A stretch of 26,857 nt of DNA, taken from UHGV virus genome UHGV-0196088. One strand, given 5' to 3'. A model generated the notes under the pieces. That model was not told where the DNA came from and searched no databases. It saw only the letters and a program-made list of their open reading frames with translations. Numbering within the stretch: the stretch's first letter is position 1; each line of letters starts with the position of its first letter. This DNA comes from a virus. The position numbers and the translations under genes are program-made. This document shows positions 16,140 to 26,857 of this stretch, piece by piece.

Positions 16140-16511
16140 ATGAAAGCGCCCTCAAAACAGTCGTGGGCACTGATGAGTGTCCTGCTAGTGGCATTTTGGT
16201 TGTTGCCGCTCATCTCCATGTGGATCAGCAGGCTGAGCGATCCCAACGCCAAGTGGTTCATCGCGTTGCTCTTCCTCGCGTTTCCACTACTCACCATCGT
16301 TTTGAGCGTTATCGATGGGGCACGCCACGGGTTCGGCTGGTGGTGGCTACTGGTCCCGTTCGCAGGGTTCTTGACCACACTGTTCGTGTACTACAACGAT
16401 TCAGCTCTCATCTACGGCGTCGCCTACTCGATCTTGGGACTGATCGGCACAGGCATCGGCGCGTTCATCCATGCGCGTACTCACAGCACGAGTAGGCCGC
16501 GTTCGTCATAA
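16140..16511 (+). CDS. Four-TM integral membrane protein, opposite-strand accessory gene
   Basis: 123-aa ORF with four clear hydrophobic helices. It occupies the gap between the TerL stop and the portal start and overlaps the TerL 3' end convergently by about 30 nt. A TAGAAT -10-like hexamer lies just upstream, implying a short or absent leader. Confidence 0.6.
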   Translation: MKAPSKQSWALMSVLLVAFWLLPLISMWISRLSDPNAKWFIALLFLAFPLLTIVLSVIDGARHGFGWWWLLVPFAGFLTTLFVYYNDSALIYGVAYSILGLIGTGIGAFIHARTHSTSRPRSS

Positions 16512-18112
16512 ACACTGCCGCTGACGTGCCCGCTGCCGTTTCGGATAGCGCGGTCAAGAGCCATGATGGTGGCGACCACGCCGTCAATCTTCTCCGTGGA
16601 CTTTTGCTTGTCGGGTTTGATGTTTCCTGCTGGGTCGGTGCGAACGTGAATGTTGTCTACCATCCATGACAGGACTGGGTGACCGCCATGGGCGAGCTTA
16701 CCTTCGAGTGCGAGCTTCATCAGCTCCTTCGACGGCGGGCTCATATCCTTAAAGCCCTGCCCGAAGGGAACGACGGTGAAACCGAGGCCTTCGAGGTTTT
16801 GACTCATTTGCACAGCACCCCACCGGTCGAACGCAATCTCACGAATATCAAACCGTTCACCTAGCTGTTCAATGAAGGCTTCAATCGCTCCGTAATGAAC
16901 GACGTTGCCCTCAGTCGTCTCTAGGTAGCCTTTTTGCTGCCACAGGTCGTAGGGCACATGGTCACGGGCTACTCGCAGTTTGAGGTTGTCTTGCGGTATC
17001 CAGAACCATGGCGCAATCACATACCGCTCGTCACCGGTTTCGGGTGGGAAGACGAGCACGAACGCGGTGATATCCGTCGTCGAGGCAAGATCGAGCCCGC
17101 CGTAACACACCCGCCCCTCCAAATCTGACAGGTCGACGGGTGCGTTGTTTTGGTTCCACACGTGCATGGGCATCCACCGCACGCTTTGTTTGACCCATTG
17201 GTTGAGGCGAAGTTGTCGGAACGTGTTCTCCTCAGCCGGATTCTGCCTGGCCGAGGTGCAGGCTTGGCGGACTTTCTCAATCGGAACCGTGATCCCCAAG
17301 CTCGGATTAGCCTTATGCCACACGTCCTCGTCGGTCCAGTCATCCTCTCTGTCAGCACCGTAGATGACCGGGTAGAACGTCGGGTCATGTTTCTTGCCTG
17401 CGAGGATGTCTTCAGCTTTCTCATGCTGCTCATAACAAATCGAATGCGTGTCGGTACCGGCCGTCGTGATGAGGAAGTACAACGGCTGCGTGCGAGCATC
17501 ACCCGAACCCTTGGTCATCACGTCGAACAAGGCACGGCCCGGTTGGGTGTGGAGTTCGTCGAAGACGACACCAGAAATGTTGAACCCGTGCTTCGAATAC
17601 GCCTCAGCGCTCAACACTTGATAGAAGGAGTTGGTGGGCTTGTAAATAATCCGCTTCTGCGAGGCAAGAATCTTGACACGCTTGGACAACGCTGGACTCA
17701 TGCGGATCATGTCCGCCGCGACCTCAAACACAATCGAGGCTTGCTGGCGGTCTGCCGCACACCCATACACTTCAGCGCGTTCTTCACCATCCCCGCAGGT
17801 GAGCAGGAGCGCGACCGCTGCGGCAAGCTCCGACTTGCCCATCTTCTTCGGAATCTCGACATAGGCGGTGGTGAACTGGCGGTAACCGTCCGCTTTGACG
17901 GTGCCGAACAGGTCACGGATGATCTGCTCTTGCCAATCAATGAGCTGGAACGGTTTGCCTGACCAGCGGCCCTTCGTGTGCTTGAGCGCTTGAATGAAGG
18001 CCACCGCATAGTCGGCTTTGCGCTTGTCATAGCGTGAGCCGTCAGCCATGAACCGGGTTGGCGTATAGGTTTCTAGTTGACGCATCGTGTCCCACCTCCT
18101 CTCCAGTGGCAT
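16481..18112 (-). CDS. Terminase large subunit
   Basis: ORF-track coordinates; the probable true start is the ATG near 18085 (MRQLETYTPTRF...), preceded by GGAGAGGAGGTG. Contains a TKGRWSGKPFQLIDWQ motif, an ATPase Walker-A-like KKMGKSELAA, and a C-terminal nuclease domain. Confidence 0.9.
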   Translation of the reverse strand: MPLERRWDTMRQLETYTPTRFMADGSRYDKRKADYAVAFIQALKHTKGRWSGKPFQLIDWQEQIIRDLFGTVKADGYRQFTTAYVEIPKKMGKSELAAAVALLLTCGDGEERAEVYGCAADRQQASIVFEVAADMIRMSPALSKRVKILASQKRIIYKPTNSFYQVLSAEAYSKHGFNISGVVFDELHTQPGRALFDVMTKGSGDARTQPLYFLITTAGTDTHSICYEQHEKAEDILAGKKHDPTFYPVIYGADREDDWTDEDVWHKANPSLGITVPIEKVRQACTSARQNPAEENTFRQLRLNQWVKQSVRWMPMHVWNQNNAPVDLSDLEGRVCYGGLDLASTTDITAFVLVFPPETGDERYVIAPWFWIPQDNLKLRVARDHVPYDLWQQKGYLETTEGNVVHYGAIEAFIEQLGERFDIREIAFDRWGAVQMSQNLEGLGFTVVPFGQGFKDMSPPSKELMKLALEGKLAHGGHPVLSWMVDNIHVRTDPAGNIKPDKQKSTEKIDGVVATIMALDRAIRNGSGHVSGSVYDERGLLVL

Positions 18113-18116
18113 AAGA

Positions 18117-18140
18117 AAAGCCCCAACAAGCGGGGCGAAA
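18117..18140 (-). terminator. Weak intrinsic terminator candidate upstream of TerL
   Basis: On the minus transcript: GCCCC-GCUUGUU-GGGGC followed by UUUUCUUAU, between the small ORF ending at 18195 and the TerL RBS. Confidence 0.3.
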
Positions 18141-18194: not shown

Positions 18195-18389
18195 TTAGAT
18201 CAGGGCGTCGAGCGCGGCATATTCAGCGCGACGCTGGTCGAGCTGGTGGGCGATGATGGAGGAGCGGAAGCCGTTCTTCTCCCGTCCCAGCTTGTTTTCT
18301 AGGGCGGTGATCTCGGCCTTGCGACGTTTCATCACCTCGATCGTGTCGCCGCCTTGGATTGCTTGCTTGTCGCGTTCGAAACTGTTCAT
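18195..18389 (-). CDS. Small hypothetical protein (64 aa, charged, predicted helical)
   Basis: The ORF track extends to 18518, but the ATG near 18389 (MNSFERDKQ...) is 8 nt downstream of AAGGAG. Preceded by leader element copy A. Confidence 0.5.
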   Translation of the reverse strand: MNSFERDKQAIQGGDTIEVMKRRKAEITALENKLGREKNGFRSSIIAHQLDQRRAEYAALDALI

Positions 18390-18395
18390 GACCAT

Positions 18396-18490
18396 CTCTC
18401 CTTCTCTTGTTTGGTCATGTACATACAGCCATAGACCCGCGACTATATCCAGTCGTTTTCGGCGTATTTTCAAGGGAAAATAGCGATGGT
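18396..18490 (-). promoter_or_regulatory. Conserved leader element, copy A (candidate promoter/operator plus RBS)
   Basis: Core CTTGTTTGGTCATGTACATACAGCCATA (plus strand) with flanking conservation (TATCCAGTCGT, GAAAATAG); about 95 bp near-identical to copy B. Contains the palindrome ATGTACAT and ends in the RBS of the downstream ORF. Confidence 0.6.
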
Positions 18491-18606
18491 CGCCACTCGC
18501 GCACTGAGGCGTTGTCACGAGCCAAACAAGACGGAAGATGCGCCCAGTATGTAAGTGGCAAGCCCAGATCCGTGCCCTGGTCGGTGTGGGTTGGGGCTAG
18601 CGCGGT

Positions 18607-18879
18607 TTAGAGAGCGTTGATCATGCCGATCGCCCAGGCAGTTGCGTGGCCTTCGTCGGTGAAGGCTTCATCGGATTCGGCAGCGAGCATCACTGGGGCG
18701 TTCTTACCTTGGCCTAGGATCTGGAAGATCGCTACGAAATGCTCGTAGGTGCCGAGGGAGTCGTTCCAGATGCGGTTGGTGGCGATCAGGTGAGTGCCGT
18801 AGCGCATCGCGTGTCCCAGGATCTTGTAGTGCTTGGCAACCGCTGTGGTGGTCTTCAAGGCTGTAAGTTCGTTGTTCAT
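18607..18879 (-). CDS. Small hypothetical protein (90 aa)
   Basis: ATG preceded by AAGGAG at ~7-nt spacing, directly after leader element copy B. No recognisable motif. Confidence 0.55.
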   Translation of the reverse strand: MNNELTALKTTTAVAKHYKILGHAMRYGTHLIATNRIWNDSLGTYEHFVAIFQILGQGKNAPVMLAAESDEAFTDEGHATAWAIGMINAL

Positions 18880-18999: not shown

Positions 19000-19647
19000 T
19001 TATTCGGCCGGGTGTGGCGCGGTTTTCCACGCCGCATTACCTTCCAAATTCGCAAGTAACACCCGGCGGGCGGTCTTGTATCCCTCGCCAAGCATTCCCA
19101 GGCGTAGGAGCCAGCAGCGCATCGCATACTTATCATTCCCTGGTTCAGGTGGTTTCGGTGAGATGCGGGTGGAGGTCTTGGCTTGCTCGATCATCAGCTG
19201 GATAAGCACGCTAGCCACCTCAATCACCTCCGCCTCAGGAAGCTGATCGAACCAAGCAAACTCAACCGTTCCTTCCACCTCGTCCATCTTCATGGGCGTG
19301 GCCGGAATATCGAGTGCCTTGGCGATGAGTGCTCCCTTGGCGGCGAGCAGGGCTTCGAGCTTCGCTGCTGTGGCCTCGTCCCACCCGGTCGTGGGGAATG
19401 CGAGCGTCAGCCCGTACTCCTCGCCCGTGGGCGCAAAACCAGCCGTAATCGCCGCCTCGGTGAGGGAGTCGGTGTCGATGTCCTCTGGGAGGTGGAGCAC
19501 CCAATCCCGATCTAGCCGGGCTTGCCCGATCAGGTAGTCGAAAGAAGGCGTACCCGCATACACGGGGTTCACGCCGAGATGGGCGGCGAGGGCTTCGGCG
19601 AGTTTCTTGCGCCCTCTCTTGTTCGGGGAGAAAGGAATCCGGGTCAT
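19000..19647 (-). CDS. Hypothetical protein (about 215 aa), translationally coupled to the upstream acidic ORF
   Basis: Likely start MTRIPFSPNKRGRKK... at the ATG near 19647, preceded by GGAGGTG inside the 3' end of the upstream ORF. Basic N-terminus, acidic central region. No recognisable family. Confidence 0.55.
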   Translation of the reverse strand: MTRIPFSPNKRGRKKLAEALAAHLGVNPVYAGTPSFDYLIGQARLDRDWVLHLPEDIDTDSLTEAAITAGFAPTGEEYGLTLAFPTTGWDEATAAKLEALLAAKGALIAKALDIPATPMKMDEVEGTVEFAWFDQLPEAEVIEVASVLIQLMIEQAKTSTRISPKPPEPGNDKYAMRCWLLRLGMLGEGYKTARRVLLANLEGNAAWKTAPHPAE

Positions 19648-19829
19648 GCTGCCACCTCCTGGTCGAACCAAGATGCGATGAAACCGAGATAGTCATCTGG
19701 GTAGTCGTTGATGCAGGTTGCGGCTAGCTCGAAGTCGTGTTCGCAGGCGTACCCGAATGCTTCAGCACGGTTCCACAGGTCGACGCCTGCTTCTAGCATT
19801 TCGGTCAGTTCAATATGTAGTTCGCTCAT
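19644..19829 (-). CDS. Small strongly acidic protein (about 61 aa)
   Basis: MSELHIELTEMLEAGVDLWNRAEAFGYACEHDFELAATCINDYPDDYLGFIASWFDQEVAA: about 14 Asp/Glu against one Arg. GGAGG RBS; the same ATGGTCATGA start context as the ORF at 18389; leader element copy C upstream. Confidence 0.55.
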   Translation of the reverse strand: MSELHIELTEMLEAGVDLWNRAEAFGYACEHDFELAATCINDYPDDYLGFIASWFDQEVAA

Positions 19830-19866
19830 GACCATCCTCCAATTCGTGTTTCCCCCAGTTAGGGAT

Positions 19867-19925
19867 CTTGTTTGGTCATGTACATACAGCCATAGGTGCG
19901 CCCGCTTATCCAGTCGTATTGGCTG
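19867..19925 (-). promoter_or_regulatory. Conserved leader element, copy C
   Basis: Identical 28-bp core (CTTGTTTGGTCATGTACATACAGCCATA) plus the TATCCAGTCGT block; located just 3' of the C5-MTase stop and about 38 nt upstream of the acidic ORF start. Confidence 0.55.
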
Positions 19926-21417
19926 CTTTTTGTAGCCTGTTTAGGACGTATTTCACTACTGGTAATGCCACCCCATTTCCCCACAGTTTGTACTGTGCTG
20001 AATCAGTTGGCGCGGTTTTCAGCCAAGTAGTGATTTGGCTGCGAGTTTTCGGTTTCACGCCCCGTCCTAGGTTCCAGTTCTTCCACACGCCCTCCCAGTA
20101 CCTGATTTCGTCTTCGTCTGGGTCGAGGTTTGTGAGGTTGTCACACCAATAGTCCGGGAAGCCTTGTAGACGAGAACATTCGAGGGGTGTGAGTTTGCGT
20201 GGGCGAAGCATCGTATTAGCGACAATAGGTGGCTGGTGTGAATCACTTGCCAAAAGTGCACCAGCAACATTTGTAGTTGCCCTCGTGAAATGATCAGATT
20301 TCGAAGAAGCATAGATCGGTTCGAGAATGACCATTCCGCCTTGATTGCATGCGGGATTACCGCCAGCTAAATCAAGAGTTTTTGCCACAGTGGTTTCGTA
20401 ACCGCATTCACCACCATATTTACGATTGTCGTGGACGGAATTTATACCGTATACAGGTTGGTCGAGTAGGAGTGGAACATTTCCACCTCCTGTTCCCATT
20501 CGTGAAGTTAAGGTTTGACTTGTTACCTGGTCGCCAATTTCGATGCGCGAATCATTGGGATGGTAATCAAGCATCACCTGCATGCTAGGTTTAAATAAGA
20601 CTTGGTCAGCACCAGTTCCTAATGTGCCTGAAAGGTCATGCTGAATCAACGGCCCTTTACCACCGCCTGGCTTACCGGCACGCATACGAAGAGTTAACGC
20701 CCCGCACCGGTTGCCTGTAGTGCTTGGGCTAATTGCTCGGGCAGGGTTTTGTTTTTCTTCTTTGCTCGCGTCAGGATTCCTTGTGCTGCTTTGGGACTCA
20801 AATAGAATCTCGGGTGCGGATTGTCCTGCAAAATCTGCGACAAGGAAGATACGACGACGACGTTGGGGCACTCCGAAAAATTGAGCATCGAGCACTCGCC
20901 ATGCAAGTGATGCCCCATCTGCCAAGACGTATCCGCTGGTTGCCCAGCTGGTTTCAGGAACAGGAATGCGTGGCGTTTGCTGGCAGGACACCTCGATAAA
21001 CGCTTGCAAGACCGCGGCAAAGTCGGCCCCGTGGTTTGAGGAGAATACGCCCGGCACGTTTTCCCACACAGCATATCTTGGGTAGACACCATGAGTTGCT
21101 TGCCTCATTTCTTCAATAATCCGCACAGCTTGGTAAAACAGTGAGGAGCGAGACCCATCAATCCCGCTCCGCTTACCTGCGATAGATAAATCCTGACAAG
21201 GTGAACCAAACGTGATCACATCCACCGGCTGTAACCGGCCACCATCTAACAAATTAATATCGCCAACATGGCGAACTTCAGGCAGATTTTTCCTCGTTAC
21301 CCGGATAGCGAAGGGGTCTACCTCAGATGCCCACATCGGTTTGATACCAACCATTTTGGCAGCTAAAGGGAAACCGCCCGAACCATCAAACAAGGAACCC
21401 AACGTCAAAGCACTCAC
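19906..21417 (-). CDS. DNA (cytosine-5)-methyltransferase
   Basis: 503 aa with motif I (LFDGSGG), motif IV (GSPCQDLSIAG), motif VI (ENVPG), motif VIII (QRRRRIFLVA), a large variable target-recognition region, and a C-terminal GFPDYW motif. GTG start overlaps the stop of the upstream MTase (GTGA). Confidence 0.95.
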   Translation of the reverse strand: MSALTLGSLFDGSGGFPLAAKMVGIKPMWASEVDPFAIRVTRKNLPEVRHVGDINLLDGGRLQPVDVITFGSPCQDLSIAGKRSGIDGSRSSLFYQAVRIIEEMRQATHGVYPRYAVWENVPGVFSSNHGADFAAVLQAFIEVSCQQTPRIPVPETSWATSGYVLADGASLAWRVLDAQFFGVPQRRRRIFLVADFAGQSAPEILFESQSSTRNPDASKEEKQNPARAISPSTTGNRCGALTLRMRAGKPGGGKGPLIQHDLSGTLGTGADQVLFKPSMQVMLDYHPNDSRIEIGDQVTSQTLTSRMGTGGGNVPLLLDQPVYGINSVHDNRKYGGECGYETTVAKTLDLAGGNPACNQGGMVILEPIYASSKSDHFTRATTNVAGALLASDSHQPPIVANTMLRPRKLTPLECSRLQGFPDYWCDNLTNLDPDEDEIRYWEGVWKNWNLGRGVKPKTRSQITTWLKTAPTDSAQYKLWGNGVALPVVKYVLNRLQKAANTTG

Positions 21418-22715
21418 GATTCACCCCGATCAACATCCCGCACCAAATCCAAATACGCGTATTCCTTGCCCTCACGCAAACAGGTGATACCTGCCGCGTC
21501 CCCGGTGTGTTCGGCATACCGGCGCAAAATCACGGAGGCGTATTTCTCGTCGAGCTCCATCGCATAACAGATGCGGTCGCTGGCCTCGCACGCCATCAAG
21601 GTTGAGCCTGAGCCTGCGAACGTGTCGAGCACGATCGCGTTCGCCTGAGTGGAGTTCCCAATCGGATAAGCCAACAAATCCAGCGGTTTAGAGGTGGGGT
21701 GGTCGGCGTTGCGGCGTGGCTTAGCGAAATTCCAGATCGTGGTCTGCTTACGATCCGCATACCAGCGATGCTTACCCGTCTTCACCCATCCAAAGAGCAC
21801 CGGCTCGTGCTGCCACTGATACGGGGAACGTCCCAATACGAGGGAATCTTTGACCCAGATGCAACATCCGGAGAGGTAGAAGCCAGCGTCTTGGAAGGCT
21901 CTGCGGAAGTTTAAGCCTTCAGTGTCAGCGTGAAAAACGTAGGCGGACGCGCCCTTCTCACACACGCCCGCCATATTCGTAAACGCTGCGAGAAGGAAGT
22001 CGTAGAACTTATCGCCATCCATCTTGTCGTTCTTAATCGACAAACCCGACCCTGATTCGAAGGCGACGTTATATGGCGGATCGGTCAACACAAGATTCGC
22101 ACGCTTACCATCCATCAACAACTCGACGTCCTCGGCGCTGGTGGCGTCGCCACAGACAAGTCGGTGGCGGCCGACTGTCCACACATCCCCACGCTCCACG
22201 AAAGTAGCAGCTTCTAACGCGGCGGTGAGGTCGAAATCATCATCCTCCACATCACCCTCATCCAATGAGCCGATAAGCTGCGCGATCTCAGCATCGTCAA
22301 AACCGGTCAGTTCAGCATCGAAATCCGAAGAGTCAAGGTCAGCGATGAGGAGGGCAAGTTTGTCGTTGTCCCATTCGCCACTGATCTTGTTCATCGCAAC
22401 GTTCAGCGCCTTTTCGCGCATTTCGTCAAGTTCGACGACGACGCAGTCCACGGTTTCTTGTCCCAAGTGTTTGAGAACGGACAATCGCTGATGACCAGAG
22501 ATGACGGTGTTGTCATTCGCCGCGTTAACCACCACTAGCTCGACGTAGCCGAACTCAGTCAGGGAGCGCTTAAGCTTTTCAAACTCAGCATCGCCAGGCT
22601 TGAGTTCCTTACGCGGGTTATATGCGGCAGGTTTCAGTTCAGCTATCGGTAGCTGCTTGATTATCATGGACATAGGTGGAGCCTTTCTTGAATAAGAAGC
22701 TGGCTGATGCCCCAA
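21414..22715 (-). CDS. ParB-like nuclease domain fused to an N6-adenine (DPPY-type, beta-class) DNA methyltransferase
   Basis: N-terminal ParB-like region (IAELKPAAYNPRK...ISGHQRL), then DPPY (LVLTDPPYNV) followed by FAGSGST. The likely true start is MSMIIKQ near 22673, which would reduce the overlap with the HNH gene. Confidence 0.9.
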   Translation of the reverse strand: MGHQPASYSRKAPPMSMIIKQLPIAELKPAAYNPRKELKPGDAEFEKLKRSLTEFGYVELVVVNAANDNTVISGHQRLSVLKHLGQETVDCVVVELDEMREKALNVAMNKISGEWDNDKLALLIADLDSSDFDAELTGFDDAEIAQLIGSLDEGDVEDDDFDLTAALEAATFVERGDVWTVGRHRLVCGDATSAEDVELLMDGKRANLVLTDPPYNVAFESGSGLSIKNDKMDGDKFYDFLLAAFTNMAGVCEKGASAYVFHADTEGLNFRRAFQDAGFYLSGCCIWVKDSLVLGRSPYQWQHEPVLFGWVKTGKHRWYADRKQTTIWNFAKPRRNADHPTSKPLDLLAYPIGNSTQANAIVLDTFAGSGSTLMACEASDRICYAMELDEKYASVILRRYAEHTGDAAGITCLREGKEYAYLDLVRDVDRGES

Positions 22716-23206
22716 TCGCCAATAAGTTCGTAGACACGTTTCGTTTCTGCTTCAACCTTCGGGTGGCACGAGCGGCAAAGAACTGCGAGATTATTGCCCC
22801 AGCGCTCGCCTCCACATTTGGTTGGGATGATGTGGTGCACAATGAGATTGCACCTGCTTCCACACCGTCTGCAGATCCCGCGTTTGCGAAGCTTTTGAGA
22901 GAGCTGCTGCCAGTGATAGTCATAGGGACCATACGTGCGCATCGCCTGAGCGTTTTGCCTCAAGACGTTAGTTAGTCGCTGTCTTTTCGAATCGGAGTAT
23001 TCACGCCATTTGCAAGATGTGTGCGCACCGATTTTCGCTTTTGTTTCGGGCGAATGATAGTTCTCACCAAGAGCCTCCTTGCGTCGTCTGAGGCCTGCCG
23101 AAACTTTCTTTCTAAACTCAGGATCTTTGTTCTTCTCAATGAGGTCTTTGCGGCTCTTTTGCCATTCATTTTGACAAGGCACCGAACAAAAGAATTGAGA
23201 AGGCAC
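22664..23206 (-). CDS. HNH endonuclease
   Basis: C-terminal HNH/zinc motif (CRRCGSRCNLIVHHIIPTKCGGERWGNNLAVLCRSCH) and a basic N-terminal region. The gene is visibly lower in G+C than its neighbours. The start is uncertain (GTG at 23206 or an internal ATG). Confidence 0.8.
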   Translation of the reverse strand: MPSQFFCSVPCQNEWQKSRKDLIEKNKDPEFRKKVSAGLRRRKEALGENYHSPETKAKIGAHTSCKWREYSDSKRQRLTNVLRQNAQAMRTYGPYDYHWQQLSQKLRKRGICRRCGSRCNLIVHHIIPTKCGGERWGNNLAVLCRSCHPKVEAETKRVYELIGDWGISQLLIQERLHLCP

Positions 23207-23261
23207 CCGATTTCAGGCATACCTACGCGTTCCCCGCACACCGCATGTGGCGCATTCGTAT

Positions 23262-24440
23262 TCAACCTTCATGCCTTGTAATCGCTTTCTTTAGCGCGTC
23301 GACGTGAGCGAACGAGTTTTCCCAATGCAGACCTGTATGACCGAAGTGCCCATAGGTTGAATACTGTGTAAAGCTAGGCTTGCGAAGGTTCAAGGCATCG
23401 ATGATTGCTCCAGGGCGCAGCGAGAATACTTCGCGTGCTGCCTCGGTCAGGATCTCGTCGGAGTATTCACCACTGCCGAGGGTGTCAACAGTGAAGGCGA
23501 CTGGGTCAGCCTTCCCAATCGCATAAGAAATGCTTACTTGGCACTCGATGGCCAACCGTGCGTCGACGATCGTTTTCGCGATCAGGCGCGCCATATAGGC
23601 ACCCGAACGATCCACTTTCGAGGCGTCCTTGCCTGAGAACGCACCACCACCATGGAGCGCGAGACCGCCGTAAGTATCAACCATCAACTTGCGACCCGTC
23701 AGACCCGTGTCCGCCTTCGGCCCACCCACCGTAAACAAGCCTGAGGGATTCACCAGAATCTCGGTGTCAGCGCTAATCGGCAGGTACAGCTTACAAGCGG
23801 GTGCGACGATCAGTGTTTTGACCTCAGCTGCAAGCTCATCTAGATCCTTGATCTTCTCGTGTTGGATCGACACCACCACGGTCTCAATCGCCAGCGGTTG
23901 TCCGGCGGCGTCGTAGCGAACCGTCACCTGCGCCTTACCATCGGACTTGATACCGGTGATCGTGCCTTGCTTGCGGGCATTGTCGAGCCGGGCGCAAATC
24001 TCATGAGAGAGCACAAGCGGCAGCGGCAAACGCTCCGGAGTCTCACGAGTGGCATAACCGTAAACAGTGCCTTGATCGCCAGCACCCTGCAAAGCGAATT
24101 CGGTGTCATCCCCAAAGCGTGCCTCTAAGGACTTGGAGACTCCGGCATTGATATCTGGGGATTGGCGGCGTGTCCAGACGAAGACGAGGAACTTCCACGG
24201 CACATAACCCGCCTCCATCAACGCGTAACGCACCGACTCACGAATGCGCGGACGAACCTTCGAAGTGATCTCGCCAGTGACGATGATCCGATGCCCGCTA
24301 GCCATCACTTCTACTGCGACGCGGGCAGCAGGATCCTCGTAGAGGATATCGTCAAGGATCGTGTCAGCGATCAGGTCGCAGAGCTTATCGGGATGGCCGA
24401 CACACACGGCCTCAGCAGTCTTCGTAACAGACATACACAC
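23262..24440 (-). CDS. metK: S-adenosylmethionine synthetase (methionine adenosyltransferase)
   Basis: MetK signature motifs by eye: GHPDKLCD near the N-terminus, GAGDQG, DTYGG, GGGAFSGKDASKVDRSGAY, and a YAIG C-terminal region. The probable start is the ATG two codons in (MSVTKTAEAV...). Confidence 0.95.
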   Translation of the reverse strand: MCMSVTKTAEAVCVGHPDKLCDLIADTILDDILYEDPAARVAVEVMASGHRIIVTGEITSKVRPRIRESVRYALMEAGYVPWKFLVFVWTRRQSPDINAGVSKSLEARFGDDTEFALQGAGDQGTVYGYATRETPERLPLPLVLSHEICARLDNARKQGTITGIKSDGKAQVTVRYDAAGQPLAIETVVVSIQHEKIKDLDELAAEVKTLIVAPACKLYLPISADTEILVNPSGLFTVGGPKADTGLTGRKLMVDTYGGLALHGGGAFSGKDASKVDRSGAYMARLIAKTIVDARLAIECQVSISYAIGKADPVAFTVDTLGSGEYSDEILTEAAREVFSLRPGAIIDALNLRKPSFTQYSTYGHFGHTGLHWENSFAHVDALKKAITRHEG

Positions 24441-24464: not shown

Positions 24465-24495
24465 AGAAAAGTGCCCACCCATCCGGGGCAGGCAC
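24465..24495 (-). terminator. Intrinsic terminator candidate between TerS and metK
   Basis: On the minus transcript: GUGCCUGCCC-CGGAU-GGGUGGGCAC (~10-bp stem with G-U pairs) followed by UUUUCUAU. Coordinates are approximate. Confidence 0.3.
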
Positions 24496-24513: not shown

Positions 24514-25086
24514 TTAGGAGCGTGCTTTGAGCAGTTGCTCCATCACGTCATCACCCGGAGCCGTGCCCGAGTAGTCGGTGGTGCAGGTGGCGCGGACGAT
24601 CTCGTAAATCTCGTACCAGTACACGTTCGCTTGCTTCCCGAACGACTGGGACATGGCGACGAAGGGGGACGCGATTGCAGCCCCTGTGGTTGGGTGCTTG
24701 CCAAGTAGGCCGAACTTGGAGATCGCCTGCTCACACTGCACATAGCGCGCGAACGCCTGCGCATAGGCTTCGATCAGACGTGGGGCGACGAACTGGGAAC
24801 AGCCACGTTGATCGAGCCATTGCCACGTTTCTCGGTAGACCAGGTCAGCACCGAGTGGTTTGCCATCCCGCTGAACCTCAGACAAATACTCGCTAGGTTC
24901 TGGCATGGTCTCCCCGGCGAGCACTGCGCCCTCACCCACATCGGAGCCGCTGAAATCAAACACGTCCTCAAGCGGATCATGCAACCTAGTCGCAGGGCTG
25001 CCTTTGGCAACCTTCTCACTCAACGCATCCGGCTTCGCACCCGCACGCACCCGACGTCCACCCCTGTTAGTACCATCCTTAGCCAT
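24514..25086 (-). CDS. Terminase small subunit (P27-family-like)
   Basis: 190 aa; basic N-terminus (MAKDGTNRGGRRVRAGAKP), central ...LIEAYAQAFARYVQCEQAISKFGLLGKHPTTGAAIASPFVAM... resembling P27-type small terminases. GGAGG RBS. First late gene after an AT-rich promoter region. Confidence 0.6.
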   Translation of the reverse strand: MAKDGTNRGGRRVRAGAKPDALSEKVAKGSPATRLHDPLEDVFDFSGSDVGEGAVLAGETMPEPSEYLSEVQRDGKPLGADLVYRETWQWLDQRGCSQFVAPRLIEAYAQAFARYVQCEQAISKFGLLGKHPTTGAAIASPFVAMSQSFGKQANVYWYEIYEIVRATCTTDYSGTAPGDDVMEQLLKARS

Positions 25087-25101
25087 GGGAATCCTCCCCT
25101 C

Positions 25102-25130
25102 TTGCTGGACGTGCTGATACTCTATATAAT
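25102..25130 (+). promoter_or_regulatory. Near-consensus sigma-70-type promoter (TTGCTG - 17 nt - TATAAT) facing the plus-strand membrane gene
   Basis: Read directly in the AT-rich spacer between the TerS start and the plus-strand ORF; a TTGACA hexamer lies a few nt downstream. The same region probably holds the divergent promoter for TerS. Confidence 0.45.
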
Positions 25131-25185
25131 TTCACCAGTTGACATAATTAGCATCGGTAATGGAGAGTCTTCGTGGACTACTGAG

Positions 25186-25638
25186 ATGGAAGCGACCAAT
25201 AACTTATCCAATCGTGGGATTCGGTATAGATGGCTGCTAGGTATTACCTTTGTATTTTTCGCTTGCCATGTTTCCTACACCGTTTTAGCTCTTACGCTTC
25301 CGAGTATTCAGCTACTCGGGTCACTTTTGATCGCTGTATCAATACCCGTTAGCGCTCTTTTTGGTTGTGTCCTGCCACTCAGAGGGTTTAACTCTCGATT
25401 CTTGATTAAATCTGGGTTCTCTATTTTCGTTGGCATTGTAGCGGCTTACGCCACGGCACAACTAGCTGAGAGTGGCAATTTATCAGTGCGAGCAATGCTC
25501 TGCGGGCACCTCGCACTCAATCTGACAATCTACACTTTAATGTGTGGTTTAACGACAATCTATATTCGCCGTCAGCAAACTGGGTGTACTCGACGCCCAG
25601 AAACCACTGAGGATCAACAACTAGACGACAATCAATAG
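25186..25638 (+). CDS. Integral membrane protein (about 150 aa, ~4 TM helices) in a low-G+C island
   Basis: In-frame ATG within track ORF 24808..25638. Hydrophobic helices (WLLGITFVFFA, LLGSLLIAVSIPVSALFGCVL, GFSIFVGIVAAYATA, LALNLTIYTLMCGL). The region is visibly AT-richer than the phage genes. Confidence 0.55.
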   Translation: MEATNNLSNRGIRYRWLLGITFVFFACHVSYTVLALTLPSIQLLGSLLIAVSIPVSALFGCVLPLRGFNSRFLIKSGFSIFVGIVAAYATAQLAESGNLSVRAMLCGHLALNLTIYTLMCGLTTIYIRRQQTGCTRRPETTEDQQLDDNQ

Positions 25639-25673
25639 TCTACAGGTGCCCAACAACCCTACCCTCTTACTGA

Positions 25674-26183
25674 TCATTTCTCCGACTCAGGTAGGCTTTT
25701 CGTTCCTTTGTTCAACGCGTCAGTGAGGTTTTCAATAAACGATTCACTATGATCAATGATTACCGTTGCCCCATCTTTGATCACAACATGCACGGACGTT
25801 GTATTCGGGTAGTTGGCGTTTACCTCTGTCAATTTGCCATCATATGTAAACCAACGAAGTGTTATATCGCTACGGGAAATTTTACGTGCAGACTCTGAAC
25901 AGACCTGATGTGGTACATCAGCTGGTGATGCTGAGTGAGTGTCAACGCATACCTGGCCTTTAGTTTGATAAACGTCAACGGTATTGTTGCCAGAGTCGGC
26001 TCTAGCCACCAAATACTTCGCATCGATTTTGGGAGAGGTAACCACGACTCCAGGGATTAGATTGAAATAGAGCGCGATTAAAATTCCGAGGATAGAGAGC
26101 GCGCAGGCAGCAATAATGAGTGCTATTTTTCTTATTCTGAGAACAAGAATTCTAGTTTTCACATTGTTGCTGCCTGCGTTCAT
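25674..26183 (-). CDS. N-terminally membrane-anchored protein with ~120-aa extracytoplasmic domain
   Basis: 169 aa: basic stretch (KTRILVLRIRK), then one TM helix (IALIIAACALSILGILIALYF), then a soluble domain with two Cys. Low G+C; immediately downstream of the next ORF. Confidence 0.55.
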   Translation of the reverse strand: MNAGSNNVKTRILVLRIRKIALIIAACALSILGILIALYFNLIPGVVVTSPKIDAKYLVARADSGNNTVDVYQTKGQVCVDTHSASPADVPHQVCSESARKISRSDITLRWFTYDGKLTEVNANYPNTTSVHVVIKDGATVIIDHSESFIENLTDALNKGTKSLPESEK

Positions 26184-26195
26184 TGCTTTGCGCTC

Positions 26196-26857
26196 CTATC
26201 CAGCTGCTCCGATTGCCACCAGCCCTCCGACTAGCCCAGCTTCGGGTGCGACGACAACTACAACGGCAGCGAGTGCCACGAGCGCGACAACACCGACTGC
26301 TACAGCAACTGCCTCGCCAGAAACCTCGGGTAGTCGCAATTCTACACCTAGCGTTGGATGCAGGGTGACCTCATAGGTGACAGTCACGGACATGGTGGAC
26401 TTTACTGCGGTGTTTCCGCTTGCAAGGTTATCTGAATCCACTCGAATCCATGCCTGCAATGAAGTGGGATCCACAACTGTGAGTCCATATGAAATATTTC
26501 CTGACTTAACAGACCCTGCTATACGTTTGATTTTTGAGGCGAAGTCACCATTGGAACCGAGATCTTTCACATCGAAGGTTGCGCTTGCGGAGTCAATTGA
26601 ACTGAGAGTCGAGGCTGACAGTTCTCCCGCATTGTTTACCGTGATGTTAGTTGAAAACAATTCATTAGAGGATGTCGTCGCTTGAGTCGCGATATGTGCT
26701 GAGACCTTCATGTCGAAAGTTGGCGTATGCACATTGCCAAGCTCAAGTGTCTGGCCGTATTCCCAGCCAACAGAAGAAAAGCTTGGGTAGTAACCCAAGG
26801 GCTCAAGTACACGTCGCACGAAAGTTTCTCGTGCGATCTCGAGCAGATTACGTCGGT
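26196..26857 (-). CDS. Ser/Thr-rich surface-type protein with hydrophobic C-terminal segment; 5' end probably beyond the window
   Basis: The ORF stays open to the window edge. Beta-rich Ser/Thr/Asn-rich sequence ending in a long hydrophobic Ala/Val/Gly stretch preceded by LPEVSG. Confidence 0.45.
   Translation of the reverse strand, partial: RRNLLEIARETFVRRVLEPLGYYPSFSSVGWEYGQTLELGNVHTPTFDMKVSAHIATQATTSSNELFSTNITVNNAGELSASTLSSIDSASATFDVKDLGSNGDFASKIKRIAGSVKSGNISYGLTVVDPTSLQAWIRVDSDNLASGNTAVKSTMSVTVTYEVTLHPTLGVELRLPEVSGEAVAVAVGVVALVALAAVVVVVAPEAGLVGGLVAIGAAG

What the first reader, a model, noticed from the sequence alone, without database searches (positions are those of the whole stretch)
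19906..24440. Phage-borne SAM synthetase (MetK) grouped with two DNA methyltransferases between the terminase subunits
Seen in sequence: an intact-looking MetK (GHPDK, DTYGG, GGGAFSGKD-SKVDRS motifs) is followed by an HNH gene, then a ParB-domain/DPPY N6-adenine MTase and a C5-cytosine MTase whose stop and start overlap (GTGA). All lie between TerS and TerL. Established knowledge: SAM synthetase is normally a host housekeeping enzyme, and SAM is the methyl donor for both MTases. Inference: the phage carries its own SAM supply to guarantee rapid methylation of its DNA, or to resist host defences that sense or deplete SAM. A MetK plus dual-MTase anti-restriction module would be an unusual, poorly described arrangement.
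Basis: partly seen in the sequence, partly recalled or inferred. Interest (0 to 1): 0.72.

Follow-up and report, generated by a model that had tools for sequence, protein, structure and literature searches.

The report
Phage MetK plus DNA methyltransferase module
A prophage carries an intact SAM-synthetase gene next to two DNA methyltransferase genes, but this same arrangement is common in a widespread, already described phage lineage, so it is a typical member and not an oddity.

Summary
On the minus strand, between TerS and TerL, lie an intact MetK, an HNH gene, a ParB-domain/DPPY methyltransferase and a C5-cytosine methyltransferase. The last two overlap in GTGA.

MetK passes the NCBIfam metK equivalog cut-off and keeps 17 of 17 E. 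coli active-site residues checked. It is not a recent host fragment. It belongs to a phage-only MetK clade marked by a shared 7-residue deletion. In 80 IMG/VR relatives, TerS lies upstream in 68/68 loci and the ParB-MTase directly downstream in 69/69.

The arrangement is not unusual or undescribed. The same order (MetK, HNH, ParB-methylase, C5-methylase) was published for Streptococcus prophage Phi1207.3 in 2014, with the same "methyl donor" idea. It also occurs in phi-SsUD.1 and the Javan phages. metK and dcm are reported in 59% and 67% of Ca. Heliusvirales genomes.

The HNH gene is a roughly 600-bp insertion absent from nearly all relatives. The C5 MTase is a variable cassette.

SAM supply for self-methylation remains the best reading, but it is untested.

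One side finding: many relatives carry a 261-residue "mini-MetK" in the same slot.

Verdict: a new member of a known kind, of low to moderate interest.

The parts
24514..25086 (-). Terminase small subunit (P27/Terminase_4 type); upstream boundary of the block
   Evidence: PF05119 E 5e-6; phrog_83 E 8e-28. A TerS homolog lies upstream of MetK in 68/68 related loci.
24471..24495 (-). Terminator-like GC-rich hairpin plus T-run between TerS and MetK
   Evidence: Scan hit with 10 pairs followed by TTTTCT. A hairpin is present at the same place in relatives, and 5 of 8 pairs show compensatory changes. No Rfam family or riboswitch matches.
23262..24440 (-). MetK, S-adenosylmethionine synthetase (methionine adenosyltransferase). 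Likely start is ATG 24434, giving 390 aa.
   Evidence: Three Pfam domains. TIGR01034 401 bits, above the 309 cut-off. 17/17 E. coli active-site residues conserved at 45% identity. The exact 390-aa product is on record in an ENA metagenome contig. It sits in a phage-only clade with a shared 7-aa deletion.
22664..23206 (-). Free-standing HNH endonuclease gene, inserted between MetK and the ParB-MTase
   Evidence: PF01844 E 7e-9; intact HNH core and two CxxC pairs. DNA homology to close relatives breaks at 22649 and resumes at 23270. Homologs of 52-61% identity sit at the same junction only in L003, L087, L103, L106 and L170. The stop TGA at 22666-22664 overlaps ATG 22667.
21414..22715 (-). ParB N-terminal domain fused to a beta-class N6A/N4C DNA methyltransferase. 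Likely start is ATG 22673, giving 419 aa.
   Evidence: PF02195 27.9 bits and PF01555 E 2e-23; phrog_498 E 9e-176. DPPY (motif IV) precedes FAGSG (motif I). The public record calls a 419-aa gene. The nearest solved MTases include both m6A and m4C enzymes.
19906..21417 (-). C5-cytosine DNA methyltransferase with a ~230-aa variable region; its start overlaps the ParB-MTase stop (GTGA)
   Evidence: PF00145 E 8e-47. Motifs I, IV, VI, VIII, IX and X found. Overlap verified. It is 98-99% identical in L006 and L015 but only ~50% identical, or absent, in other relatives.
19644..19835 (-). 63-aa ORF, function unknown
   Evidence: No family match. Homologs at the same position in many relatives.
19000..19671 (-). 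Conserved 215-223-aa protein of unknown function, annotated 'virulence-related protein' in Streptococcus phages
18607..18879 (-). Nmad4 (nucleotide modification associated domain 4) protein, 90 aa
   Evidence: PF18756 E 3e-22. Present only sporadically in relatives.
18195..18518 (-). 107-aa ORF, function unknown
   Evidence: No family match. Partial homologs in relatives.
16481..18112 (-). Terminase large subunit; downstream boundary of the block
   Evidence: PF20441 E 4e-51 and PF03354 E 2e-21; phrog_9 E 1e-189. 74-79% identical to TerL of Javan630, NatCom_35866 (Ca. Heliusvirales) and phi1605.

Best explanation
The region is the conserved accessory block between the terminase genes of a temperate siphovirus. 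The phage is related to Ca. Heliusvirales and the Streptococcus Phi1207.3/Javan phages, and its host is probably a member of the Actinomycetaceae.

MetK is an active SAM synthetase that has been carried by this phage lineage for a long time. It is transcribed and translated together with a ParB-domain adenine (or N4-cytosine) methyltransferase, and here also with an exchangeable C5-cytosine methyltransferase.

During lytic growth the two orphan methyltransferases would methylate progeny phage DNA around the time of packaging, so that it survives restriction in the next host. MetK would raise the local SAM supply so that methylation of many genome copies is fast and complete.

The HNH gene is a separate selfish (homing-type) insertion at the MetK/MTase junction and not a working part of the module.

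What is shown: gene identities, intact motifs, synteny, and insertion/cassette polymorphism. What is inferred: enzymatic activity, late expression, SAM limitation, and the anti-restriction benefit.
For: - MetK is intact. It exceeds the metK equivalog cut-off, keeps 17/17 active-site residues and matches solved MetKs at E 1e-108.
- Both MTases have complete catalytic motifs.
- Linkage is tight. The ParB-MTase lies directly downstream of MetK in 69/69 loci, with a median gap of -4 nt, which suggests translational coupling. TerS lies upstream in 68/68.
- Seen from the MTase side, 60 of 73 ParB-MTase relatives have a MetK-family gene abutting the MTase start: 35 full-length and 25 of 261 aa.
- MetK identity co-varies with ParB-MTase (r 0.77) and TerL (r 0.80).
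- The window MetK belongs to a phage-only clade with a shared 7-aa deletion that is absent from the four cellular MetKs in the alignment.
- No restriction enzyme partner was recognised. The block sits inside the packaging/structural gene array.
- The C5 MTase varies as a cassette, as expected for anti-restriction specificity.
- The HNH gene coincides exactly with a break in DNA homology.
- Published authors reached the same reading for Phi1207.3 and for the Heliusvirales MTase. Kieft et al. report conserved residues, purifying selection and separate clustering of viral MetK.
Against: - There is no direct evidence that SAM is limiting or that MetK affects phage methylation.
- Orthologous ParB-MTases occur without any MetK-family gene in 13/73 loci. 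About 41% of Heliusvirales lack metK. MetK is therefore dispensable for the MTase.
- In a Streptococcus agalactiae prophage, metK deletion changed lysogen aggregation and biofilm, which points to a host-directed role.
- A conserved terminator-like hairpin separates TerS from MetK, so simple co-transcription with the late operon is not certain.
- More SAM could also feed SAM-dependent host defences such as Type I R-M and BREX (background).
- The base specificity of the ParB-MTase (m6A or m4C) cannot be decided from sequence.
Confidence: 0.55

Rival explanations
1. MetK is an auxiliary metabolic or lysogenic-conversion gene. It would be expressed to reprogramme host methionine/SAM metabolism (polyamines, quorum signals, cell-wall and biofilm traits), and its position next to the MTases would be historical, not functional.
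For: Deleting or complementing metK in GBS prophage 12/111phiA altered flocculation, chain length and glycocalyx (PMC8223999). Kieft et al. classify viral metK as an organosulfur AMG, and report metK among the AMG families expressed in a lake metatranscriptome. Terminator-like hairpins flank the MetK-to-orf107 block, as in a moron-like unit.
Against: MetK is always immediately followed by the ParB-MTase, usually with overlapping stop and start (69/69). Where full MetK is missing, a minimal MetK often fills the same slot (25/73). This argues for a functional pair. No promoter-like site was found on the coding strand, though the scan covers only sigma-70 consensus. The block lies in the late packaging region.
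Confidence: 0.2
2. The HNH protein is functional within the block. It could be the terminase-associated HNH needed for cos cleavage in HK97-like phages, or a small HNH restriction enzyme whose sites are protected by the adjacent MTases, making the block a phage-borne R-M system.
For: Relatives carry an HNH gene just upstream of TerS (L015; phi1605), whereas the window has none there. The window HNH stop overlaps the ParB-MTase start. HNH homologs always sit directly upstream of the ParB-MTase, even in L170, which has no MetK.
Against: The closest relative L011 is 92% identical on both sides and lacks the gene: about 16 bp separate the two homology blocks there, against ~620 bp in the window. 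Only 6 of roughly 160 loci carry it. It shares only the HNH core (50% identity over 26 aa) with the TerS-adjacent HNH of L015. The MTases are stable without it.
Confidence: 0.15
3. MetK is a counter-defence device independent of the phage MTases. It would restore SAM when a host system or a competing phage depletes it, or over-supply SAM to disturb SAM-sensing regulation.
For: SAM levels are a known battleground: T3 SAMase degrades SAM and inhibits host MetK to escape Type I R-M and BREX. The phage MetK clade has a distinctive deletion that could change regulation or inhibitor sensitivity. That last point is speculation.
Against: No SAM-depleting defence was found in the papers consulted here. 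Strict adjacency to an MTase is not predicted by this model. Extra SAM would favour SAM-dependent restriction.
Confidence: 0.08

Closest known systems
Streptococcus prophages Phi1207.3 / Phi-m46.1 / phi-SsUD.1 / Javan25-type (MetK, endonuclease, ParB-adenine methylase, C5-cytosine methylase, terminase)
   Same: Same four gene types in the same order. The two MTase genes overlap by 4 nt. The block is next to the terminase genes. The same 'methyl donor' interpretation was published in 2014.
   Different: In those phages the block lies upstream of TerS, not between TerS and TerL. Their MetK is shorter (about 345-353 aa) and only 42-45% identical. Their ParB-MTase is 55-56% identical and their C5 MTase ~30%. 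The hosts are Firmicutes.
Ca. Heliusvirales and close relatives (NatCom_35866, Streptococcus phage Javan630, Erysipelothrix phage phi1605)
   Same: Identical synteny: TerS, MetK, (HNH), ParB-MTase, 'virulence-related protein', small ORFs, TerL, portal, Clp protease, capsid. TerL is 74-79% identical, MetK 56-57% and ParB-MTase 60-64%. metK is reported in 58.9% and dcm in 67% of genomes.
   Different: Those phages infect Firmicutes. The nearest relatives of the window come from Actinomycetaceae, Cutibacterium and Corynebacterium genomes. No deposited phage genome has a MetK more than 57% identical.
Viral metK/dcm auxiliary metabolic genes (Kieft et al., bioRxiv 10.1101/2021.01.05.425418)
   Same: Viral MetK with conserved substrate-binding motifs, under purifying selection, clustering apart from bacterial MetK, and co-occurring with dcm on one genome.
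   Different: That work reads metK as organosulfur/methionine-degradation metabolism. It does not describe the obligate adjacency to a ParB-MTase.
Phage T3 SAM lyase (SAMase)
   Same: A phage enzyme that manipulates the host SAM pool in the contest with restriction and BREX.
   Different: Opposite strategy and an unrelated protein. T3 destroys SAM and blocks host MetK, whereas this phage makes SAM and methylates itself.
ParB-CTPase-fold / N6_N4 methyltransferase fusions of phages and plasmids
   Same: The ParB_N + PF01555 architecture. A 2025 survey reports it as enriched in prophages, with an anti-defence role only suggested (PMC12704722).
   Different: No member has been shown to work with a dedicated SAM synthetase. 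Nucleotide binding by the ParB domain of this protein is untested.

Membership tests
MetK / methionine adenosyltransferase (TIGR01034, EC 2.5.1.6) | Three-domain S-AdoMet synthetase architecture (N, central, C) | tested here: met
   PF00438, PF02772 and PF02773 are all above their gathering scores.
MetK / methionine adenosyltransferase (TIGR01034, EC 2.5.1.6) | Score above the curated equivalog cut-off | tested here: met
   401.4 bits against a cut-off of 309.4.
MetK / methionine adenosyltransferase (TIGR01034, EC 2.5.1.6) | Catalytic and substrate-binding residues (E. coli His14, Asp16, Lys17, Glu42, Glu55, Gln98, Asp118, Asp163, Lys165, Phe230, Asp238, Arg244, Lys245, Lys265, Lys269, Asp271, Ile302) | tested here: met
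   17/17 are identical in a global alignment to E. coli MetK. The reference sequence was verified as identical to PDB 7ll3_A.
MetK / methionine adenosyltransferase (TIGR01034, EC 2.5.1.6) | ATP + methionine to SAM activity | not testable with these tools
   Needs an enzyme assay or complementation of a conditional metK mutant.
Beta-class N6-adenine/N4-cytosine DNA methyltransferase (PF01555) fused to ParB_N | Motif IV (D/S)PP(Y/F) preceding SAM-binding motif I FxGxG | tested here: met
   DPPY at residue 212 and FAGSG at residue 366. PF01555 E 2e-23.
Beta-class N6-adenine/N4-cytosine DNA methyltransferase (PF01555) fused to ParB_N | N-terminal ParB/Srx-fold domain | tested here: met
   PF02195 27.9 bits against a cut-off of 26.3. 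phrog_620 E 3e-45. Matches Spo0J/ParB structures.
   The nearest solved enzymes include DpnA-type m6A and N4-cytosine MTases with similar scores. DPPY favours m6A from general knowledge, but this is not decisive.
C5-cytosine DNA methyltransferase (PF00145 / dcm superfamily) | Conserved motifs I (FxGxG), IV (PCQ with catalytic Cys), VI (ENV), VIII (QxRxR), IX and X (GNG) | tested here: met
   All six found, in order. PF00145 E 8e-47. TIGR00675 143 bits against a cut-off of 101.
Free-standing HNH homing endonuclease | Intact HNH core with zinc-binding Cys pairs | tested here: met
   HHIIPTKCGGERWGNNLAVLCRSCH plus CRRC. PF01844 E 7e-9.
Free-standing HNH homing endonuclease | Presence/absence polymorphism at one precise site between conserved genes in otherwise collinear relatives | tested here: met
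   Homology to L011, L005, L012 and L015 breaks at 22649 and resumes at 23270. Homologs occur at the same junction in only 6 of roughly 160 loci.
Free-standing HNH homing endonuclease | Cleavage of the intron-less or HEG-less allele | not testable with these tools
   Needs an in vitro cleavage assay.
Ca. Heliusvirales (de Jonge et al. 2024) | TerL within the Heliusvirales clade (authors' TerL HMM bit-score above 700) | tested here: inconclusive
   TerL is 79% identical to NatCom_35866, which is annotated as Ca. Heliusvirales. The authors' HMM and tree were not available.
Ca. Heliusvirales (de Jonge et al. 2024) | Nine marker genes (TerL, portal, protease, capsid, plus five replication genes) | tested here: inconclusive
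   The four structural markers are present. The replication module lies outside the window. Relative L015 carries a D5-type primase gene and an SNF2 helicase upstream.
Phage orphan-methyltransferase self-protection (anti-restriction) module | MTases without a cognate restriction endonuclease | tested here: inconclusive
   No recognised REase family was found among the neighbouring ORFs. The small HNH protein cannot be formally excluded as a nuclease partner.
Phage orphan-methyltransferase self-protection (anti-restriction) module | Methylated virion DNA and protection from restriction | not testable with these tools
   Needs methylome sequencing and plating assays.

The most novel reading that the evidence does not exclude
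The MetK-family enzyme and the ParB-domain methyltransferase may form a dedicated two-protein machine and not merely be neighbours. The genes are translationally coupled, and a MetK-family gene abuts the MTase start in 60 of 73 relatives. SAM made by the phage synthetase would be handed locally to an MTase whose ParB (NTP-clamp-type) domain loads onto phage DNA near packaging, giving fast, self-fuelled methylation.

The 261-residue 'mini-MetK' in the same slot keeps 15/17 active-site residues but lacks the gating loop. On this reading it would be a stripped-down synthetase specialised for the partnership, and much shorter than any cellular MetK compared here (377-430 residues among the solved structures matched).
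Probability: 0.12. Interest if true: 0.6.

Novelty: new member of a known kind. Interest (0 to 1): 0.25.

Why it matters
If phage MetK really boosts self-methylation, it would be the mirror image of the T3 SAM-lyase strategy. It would also explain why metK is among the commonest 'metabolic' genes of a phage order found in most human guts: it would be an anti-restriction accessory, not a sulfur-metabolism gene. The tight MetK/ParB-MTase pairing and the minimal 261-residue MetK variant give simple, testable handles: enzyme assays, methylome comparison and co-purification. For this particular window the value is mostly in correct annotation. It extends a well-known module to prophages of Actinomycetaceae, and it identifies an HNH gene that the public gene calls missed.

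Tried and rejected
- **SAM riboswitch or other known RNA upstream of metK.** An Rfam E-value scan of the whole window found nothing relevant.
- **Pseudogene or disrupted MetK.** Rejected.
- **Recent capture from the host.** Rejected on three grounds: synteny across 80 loci and across phyla, co-varying identities, and a phage-clade-specific 7-aa deletion. The window MetK also scores higher against PDB 7r3b (364 bits) than against a group of solved MetKs scoring 310-317 bits that I recognise from memory as mycobacterial. I could not obtain a housekeeping MetK from an Actinomycetaceae host, so that direct comparison is missing.
- **Sigma-70 promoter inside the block.** None was found on the coding strand. 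The scan does not cover actinobacterial promoters, so this is uninformative.
- **Nmad4 literature.** Nothing useful in the held library.
- **Papers on a minimal phage SAM synthetase.** None found.
- **ParB-MTase always needs MetK.** Rejected: 13/73 relatives have no MetK-family gene.
- **Not used:** Genome contigs and metagenome-contig scans, and the representative-protein search. The viral collection already gave enough loci.

Full report
**Observation.** The window is the late region of a siphovirus-type prophage, read on the minus strand. It runs from TerS through portal, Clp-type protease, HK97-type capsid, tape measure and tail proteins to holin and amidase. Between TerS (24514-25086) and TerL (16481-18112) lie, in order:
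- MetK (23262-24440)
- an HNH gene (22664-23206)
- a ParB_N + N6_N4 methyltransferase (21414-22715)
- a C5-cytosine methyltransferase (19906-21417)
- a 63-aa ORF and a conserved 223-aa unknown
- an Nmad4-domain protein and a 107-aa ORF

The GTGA overlap of the ParB-MTase stop with the C5-MTase start is real, at 21417-21414. The HNH stop also overlaps an ATG of the ParB-MTase, and the likely MTase start is ATG 22673. The likely MetK start is ATG 24434. A 390-aa product with exactly that sequence is on record on a 40.8-kb ENA metagenome contig.

**Is MetK intact?** It matches all three S-AdoMet synthetase Pfam domains and exceeds the NCBIfam metK equivalog cut-off, 401 against 309 bits. It aligns end to end with solved MetKs at E 1e-108. 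I verified my E. coli reference as identical to PDB 7ll3_A. All 17 catalytic or substrate-binding positions I checked are identical. The only structural difference is a 7-residue deletion in the N-terminal domain.

**Is it a recent host fragment?** No.
- The closest proteins (64-95% identity) are annotated in genomes of Arcanobacterium, Trueperella, Mobiluncus, Actinotignum, Schaalia, Gleimia, Cutibacterium avidum and Corynebacterium striatum. The host is therefore probably an actinomycete.
- The viral-contig collection holds 330 relatives. In the best 80 loci, TerS lies upstream in 68/68 and the ParB-MTase directly downstream in 69/69, with a median gap of -4 nt.
- MetK identity tracks that of the ParB-MTase (r 0.77) and of TerL (r 0.80).
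- The same synteny holds in the Firmicutes phages Javan630, NatCom_35866 (Ca. Heliusvirales) and Erysipelothrix phi1605. There MetK is 56-57%, ParB-MTase 60-64% and TerL 74-79% identical.
- In a neighbour-joining tree these phage MetKs form one clade. All share the 7-residue deletion, which is absent from the cellular MetKs of E. coli, S. aureus, Listeria and Enterococcus.

**Which parts are fixed and which are not?**
- *C5 MTase.* A homolog is present in 33 of 61 loci. It is 95-99% identical in three loci but about 50% or lower in the rest. Against the L011 allele the main difference is a 33-residue indel in the variable region between motifs VIII and IX. This behaves like an exchangeable specificity cassette.
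- *HNH gene.* DNA homology to the closest relatives stops at 22649 and resumes at 23270. In L011 the two blocks are about 16 bp apart. Full-length homologs (52-61% identity) sit at the same spot only in phi1605, L087, L103, L106 and L170, and L170 has no MetK. Relatives such as L015 carry a different HNH upstream of TerS, the usual place for the packaging-associated HNH. I read the window's HNH as a selfish, homing-type insertion. A role in packaging or as a small restriction enzyme is kept as a rival. The public gene calls for this contig missed it and called an antisense 99-aa ORF instead.

**Seen from the MTase side.** A scan with the ParB-MTase gave 79 further loci at 58-89% identity. Of the 73 with enough upstream sequence:
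- 35 have a full-length MetK;
- 25 have a 261-residue MetK-like protein ending within a few bases of the MTase start;
- 13 have neither.

The 261-residue protein belongs to the same PHROG as MetK (phrog_1569, labelled 'unknown function') but reaches the Pfam threshold only for the N-terminal domain. It keeps 15 of the 17 active-site residues (Gln98 to Val, Phe230 to Trp) and lacks the gating loop and about 125 residues. MetK is therefore always accompanied by the MTase. The MTase usually, but not always, has a MetK-family partner.

**What is already known.**
- The Phi1207.3 paper (2014) lists orf29 SAM synthetase, orf30 HNH, orf32 ParB-domain methylase and orf33 C5 methylase. [quoted passage not shown]
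- phi-SsUD.1 and Javan25 show the same order with a 4-nt MTase overlap.
- De Jonge et al. report dcm in 67% and metK in 58.9% of Ca. Heliusvirales genomes, and call the MTase a probable anti-restriction device (PMC11283538).
- Kieft et al. report conserved residues, purifying selection, separate clustering and metK+dcm co-occurrence for viral MetK.
- A GBS study deleted a prophage metK and saw changes in aggregation and biofilm (PMC8223999).
- A 2025 survey found ParB-fold/N6_N4 MTase fusions enriched in prophages, with function unknown (PMC12704722).
- I found no paper that tests whether phage MetK affects phage DNA methylation.

**Best explanation (confidence about 0.55).** An active phage SAM synthetase is co-expressed with orphan DNA methyltransferases in the packaging-gene region. 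It raises SAM supply so that progeny genomes are methylated quickly and completely before packaging, which protects them from restriction in the next host.
- Shown here: gene identities, intact motifs, tight and ancient linkage, and cassette and insertion polymorphism.
- Inferred: activity, timing, SAM limitation and benefit.
- Against it: some orthologous MTases lack any MetK; the GBS phenotype suggests host-directed effects; a conserved terminator-like hairpin with compensatory changes lies between TerS and MetK; and extra SAM could also serve SAM-dependent defences.

**Verdict.** However, the arrangement is a hallmark of a widespread, published phage lineage. This window is a new, actinomycete-associated member of a known kind. 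Interest is low to moderate. The most interesting leads are the near-obligate MetK-family/ParB-MTase pairing and the minimal 261-residue MetK found in relatives.

Noticed in passing
L126:2722-3507 (+), L101:2705-3490 (+), and 23 other related loci; not in the window: A 261-residue 'mini-MetK' occupies the slot between TerS and the ParB-MTase in 25 of 73 ParB-MTase relatives. It falls in phrog_1569 (E 1e-64) but only its N-terminal domain passes Pfam. It keeps 15/17 MetK active-site residues and lacks the gating loop and about 125 residues. I found no paper that characterises it; a GBS prophage paper mentions a MetK with a '135-aa truncation'.
   Followed up: partly
window 22664-23206 (-): The HNH gene is a ~600-bp insertion exactly at the MetK/ParB-MTase junction. 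It is absent from the closest relatives and present at the same junction in a few distant phages, including one without MetK (L170). The public gene calls for the matching ENA contig miss it and call an antisense 99-aa ORF instead.
   Followed up: yes
window 24471-24495 (-), and 18120-18136 (-): Terminator-like hairpins followed by T-runs bracket the MetK-to-orf107 block. The TerS-MetK hairpin is conserved in position across relatives, with compensatory changes in 5 of 8 pairs. It could be a terminator or antitermination point inside the packaging gene array. No Rfam match.
   Followed up: partly
[not shown]
   Followed up: partly
window 18607-18879 (-): A 90-aa Nmad4 (nucleotide modification associated domain 4) protein lies in the same block as MetK and the MTases and occurs sporadically in relatives. 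It hints at a further nucleotide-modification role, but its function is unknown.
   Followed up: no
window 23262-24440 (-), MetK residues ~81-84: A 7-residue deletion relative to cellular MetKs (E. coli 'HSDMGFD' loop) is shared by all phage-clade MetKs from both Actinomycetales and Firmicutes phages. The Streptococcus Javan25-type MetKs are shortened further. Its structural consequence is unknown.
   Followed up: partly
window 25087-26857: The region upstream of TerS has low GC (about 47-48% against about 57% elsewhere). It contains a ~590-bp stretch with no gene called in the public record and two minus-strand ORFs (169 aa and at least 207 aa) with no family match. It is 92.6% identical in relative L011. 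No HNH gene lies here, unlike in L015 and phi1605.
   Followed up: partly
window 19007-22649 compared with L011 and L015: The window is mosaic. TerS-MetK and the structural genes are closest to L011 (92%), while the C5-MTase region is closest to L015 and L006 (98-99% protein identity). This indicates recombination that swapped the C5 MTase allele.
   Followed up: partly
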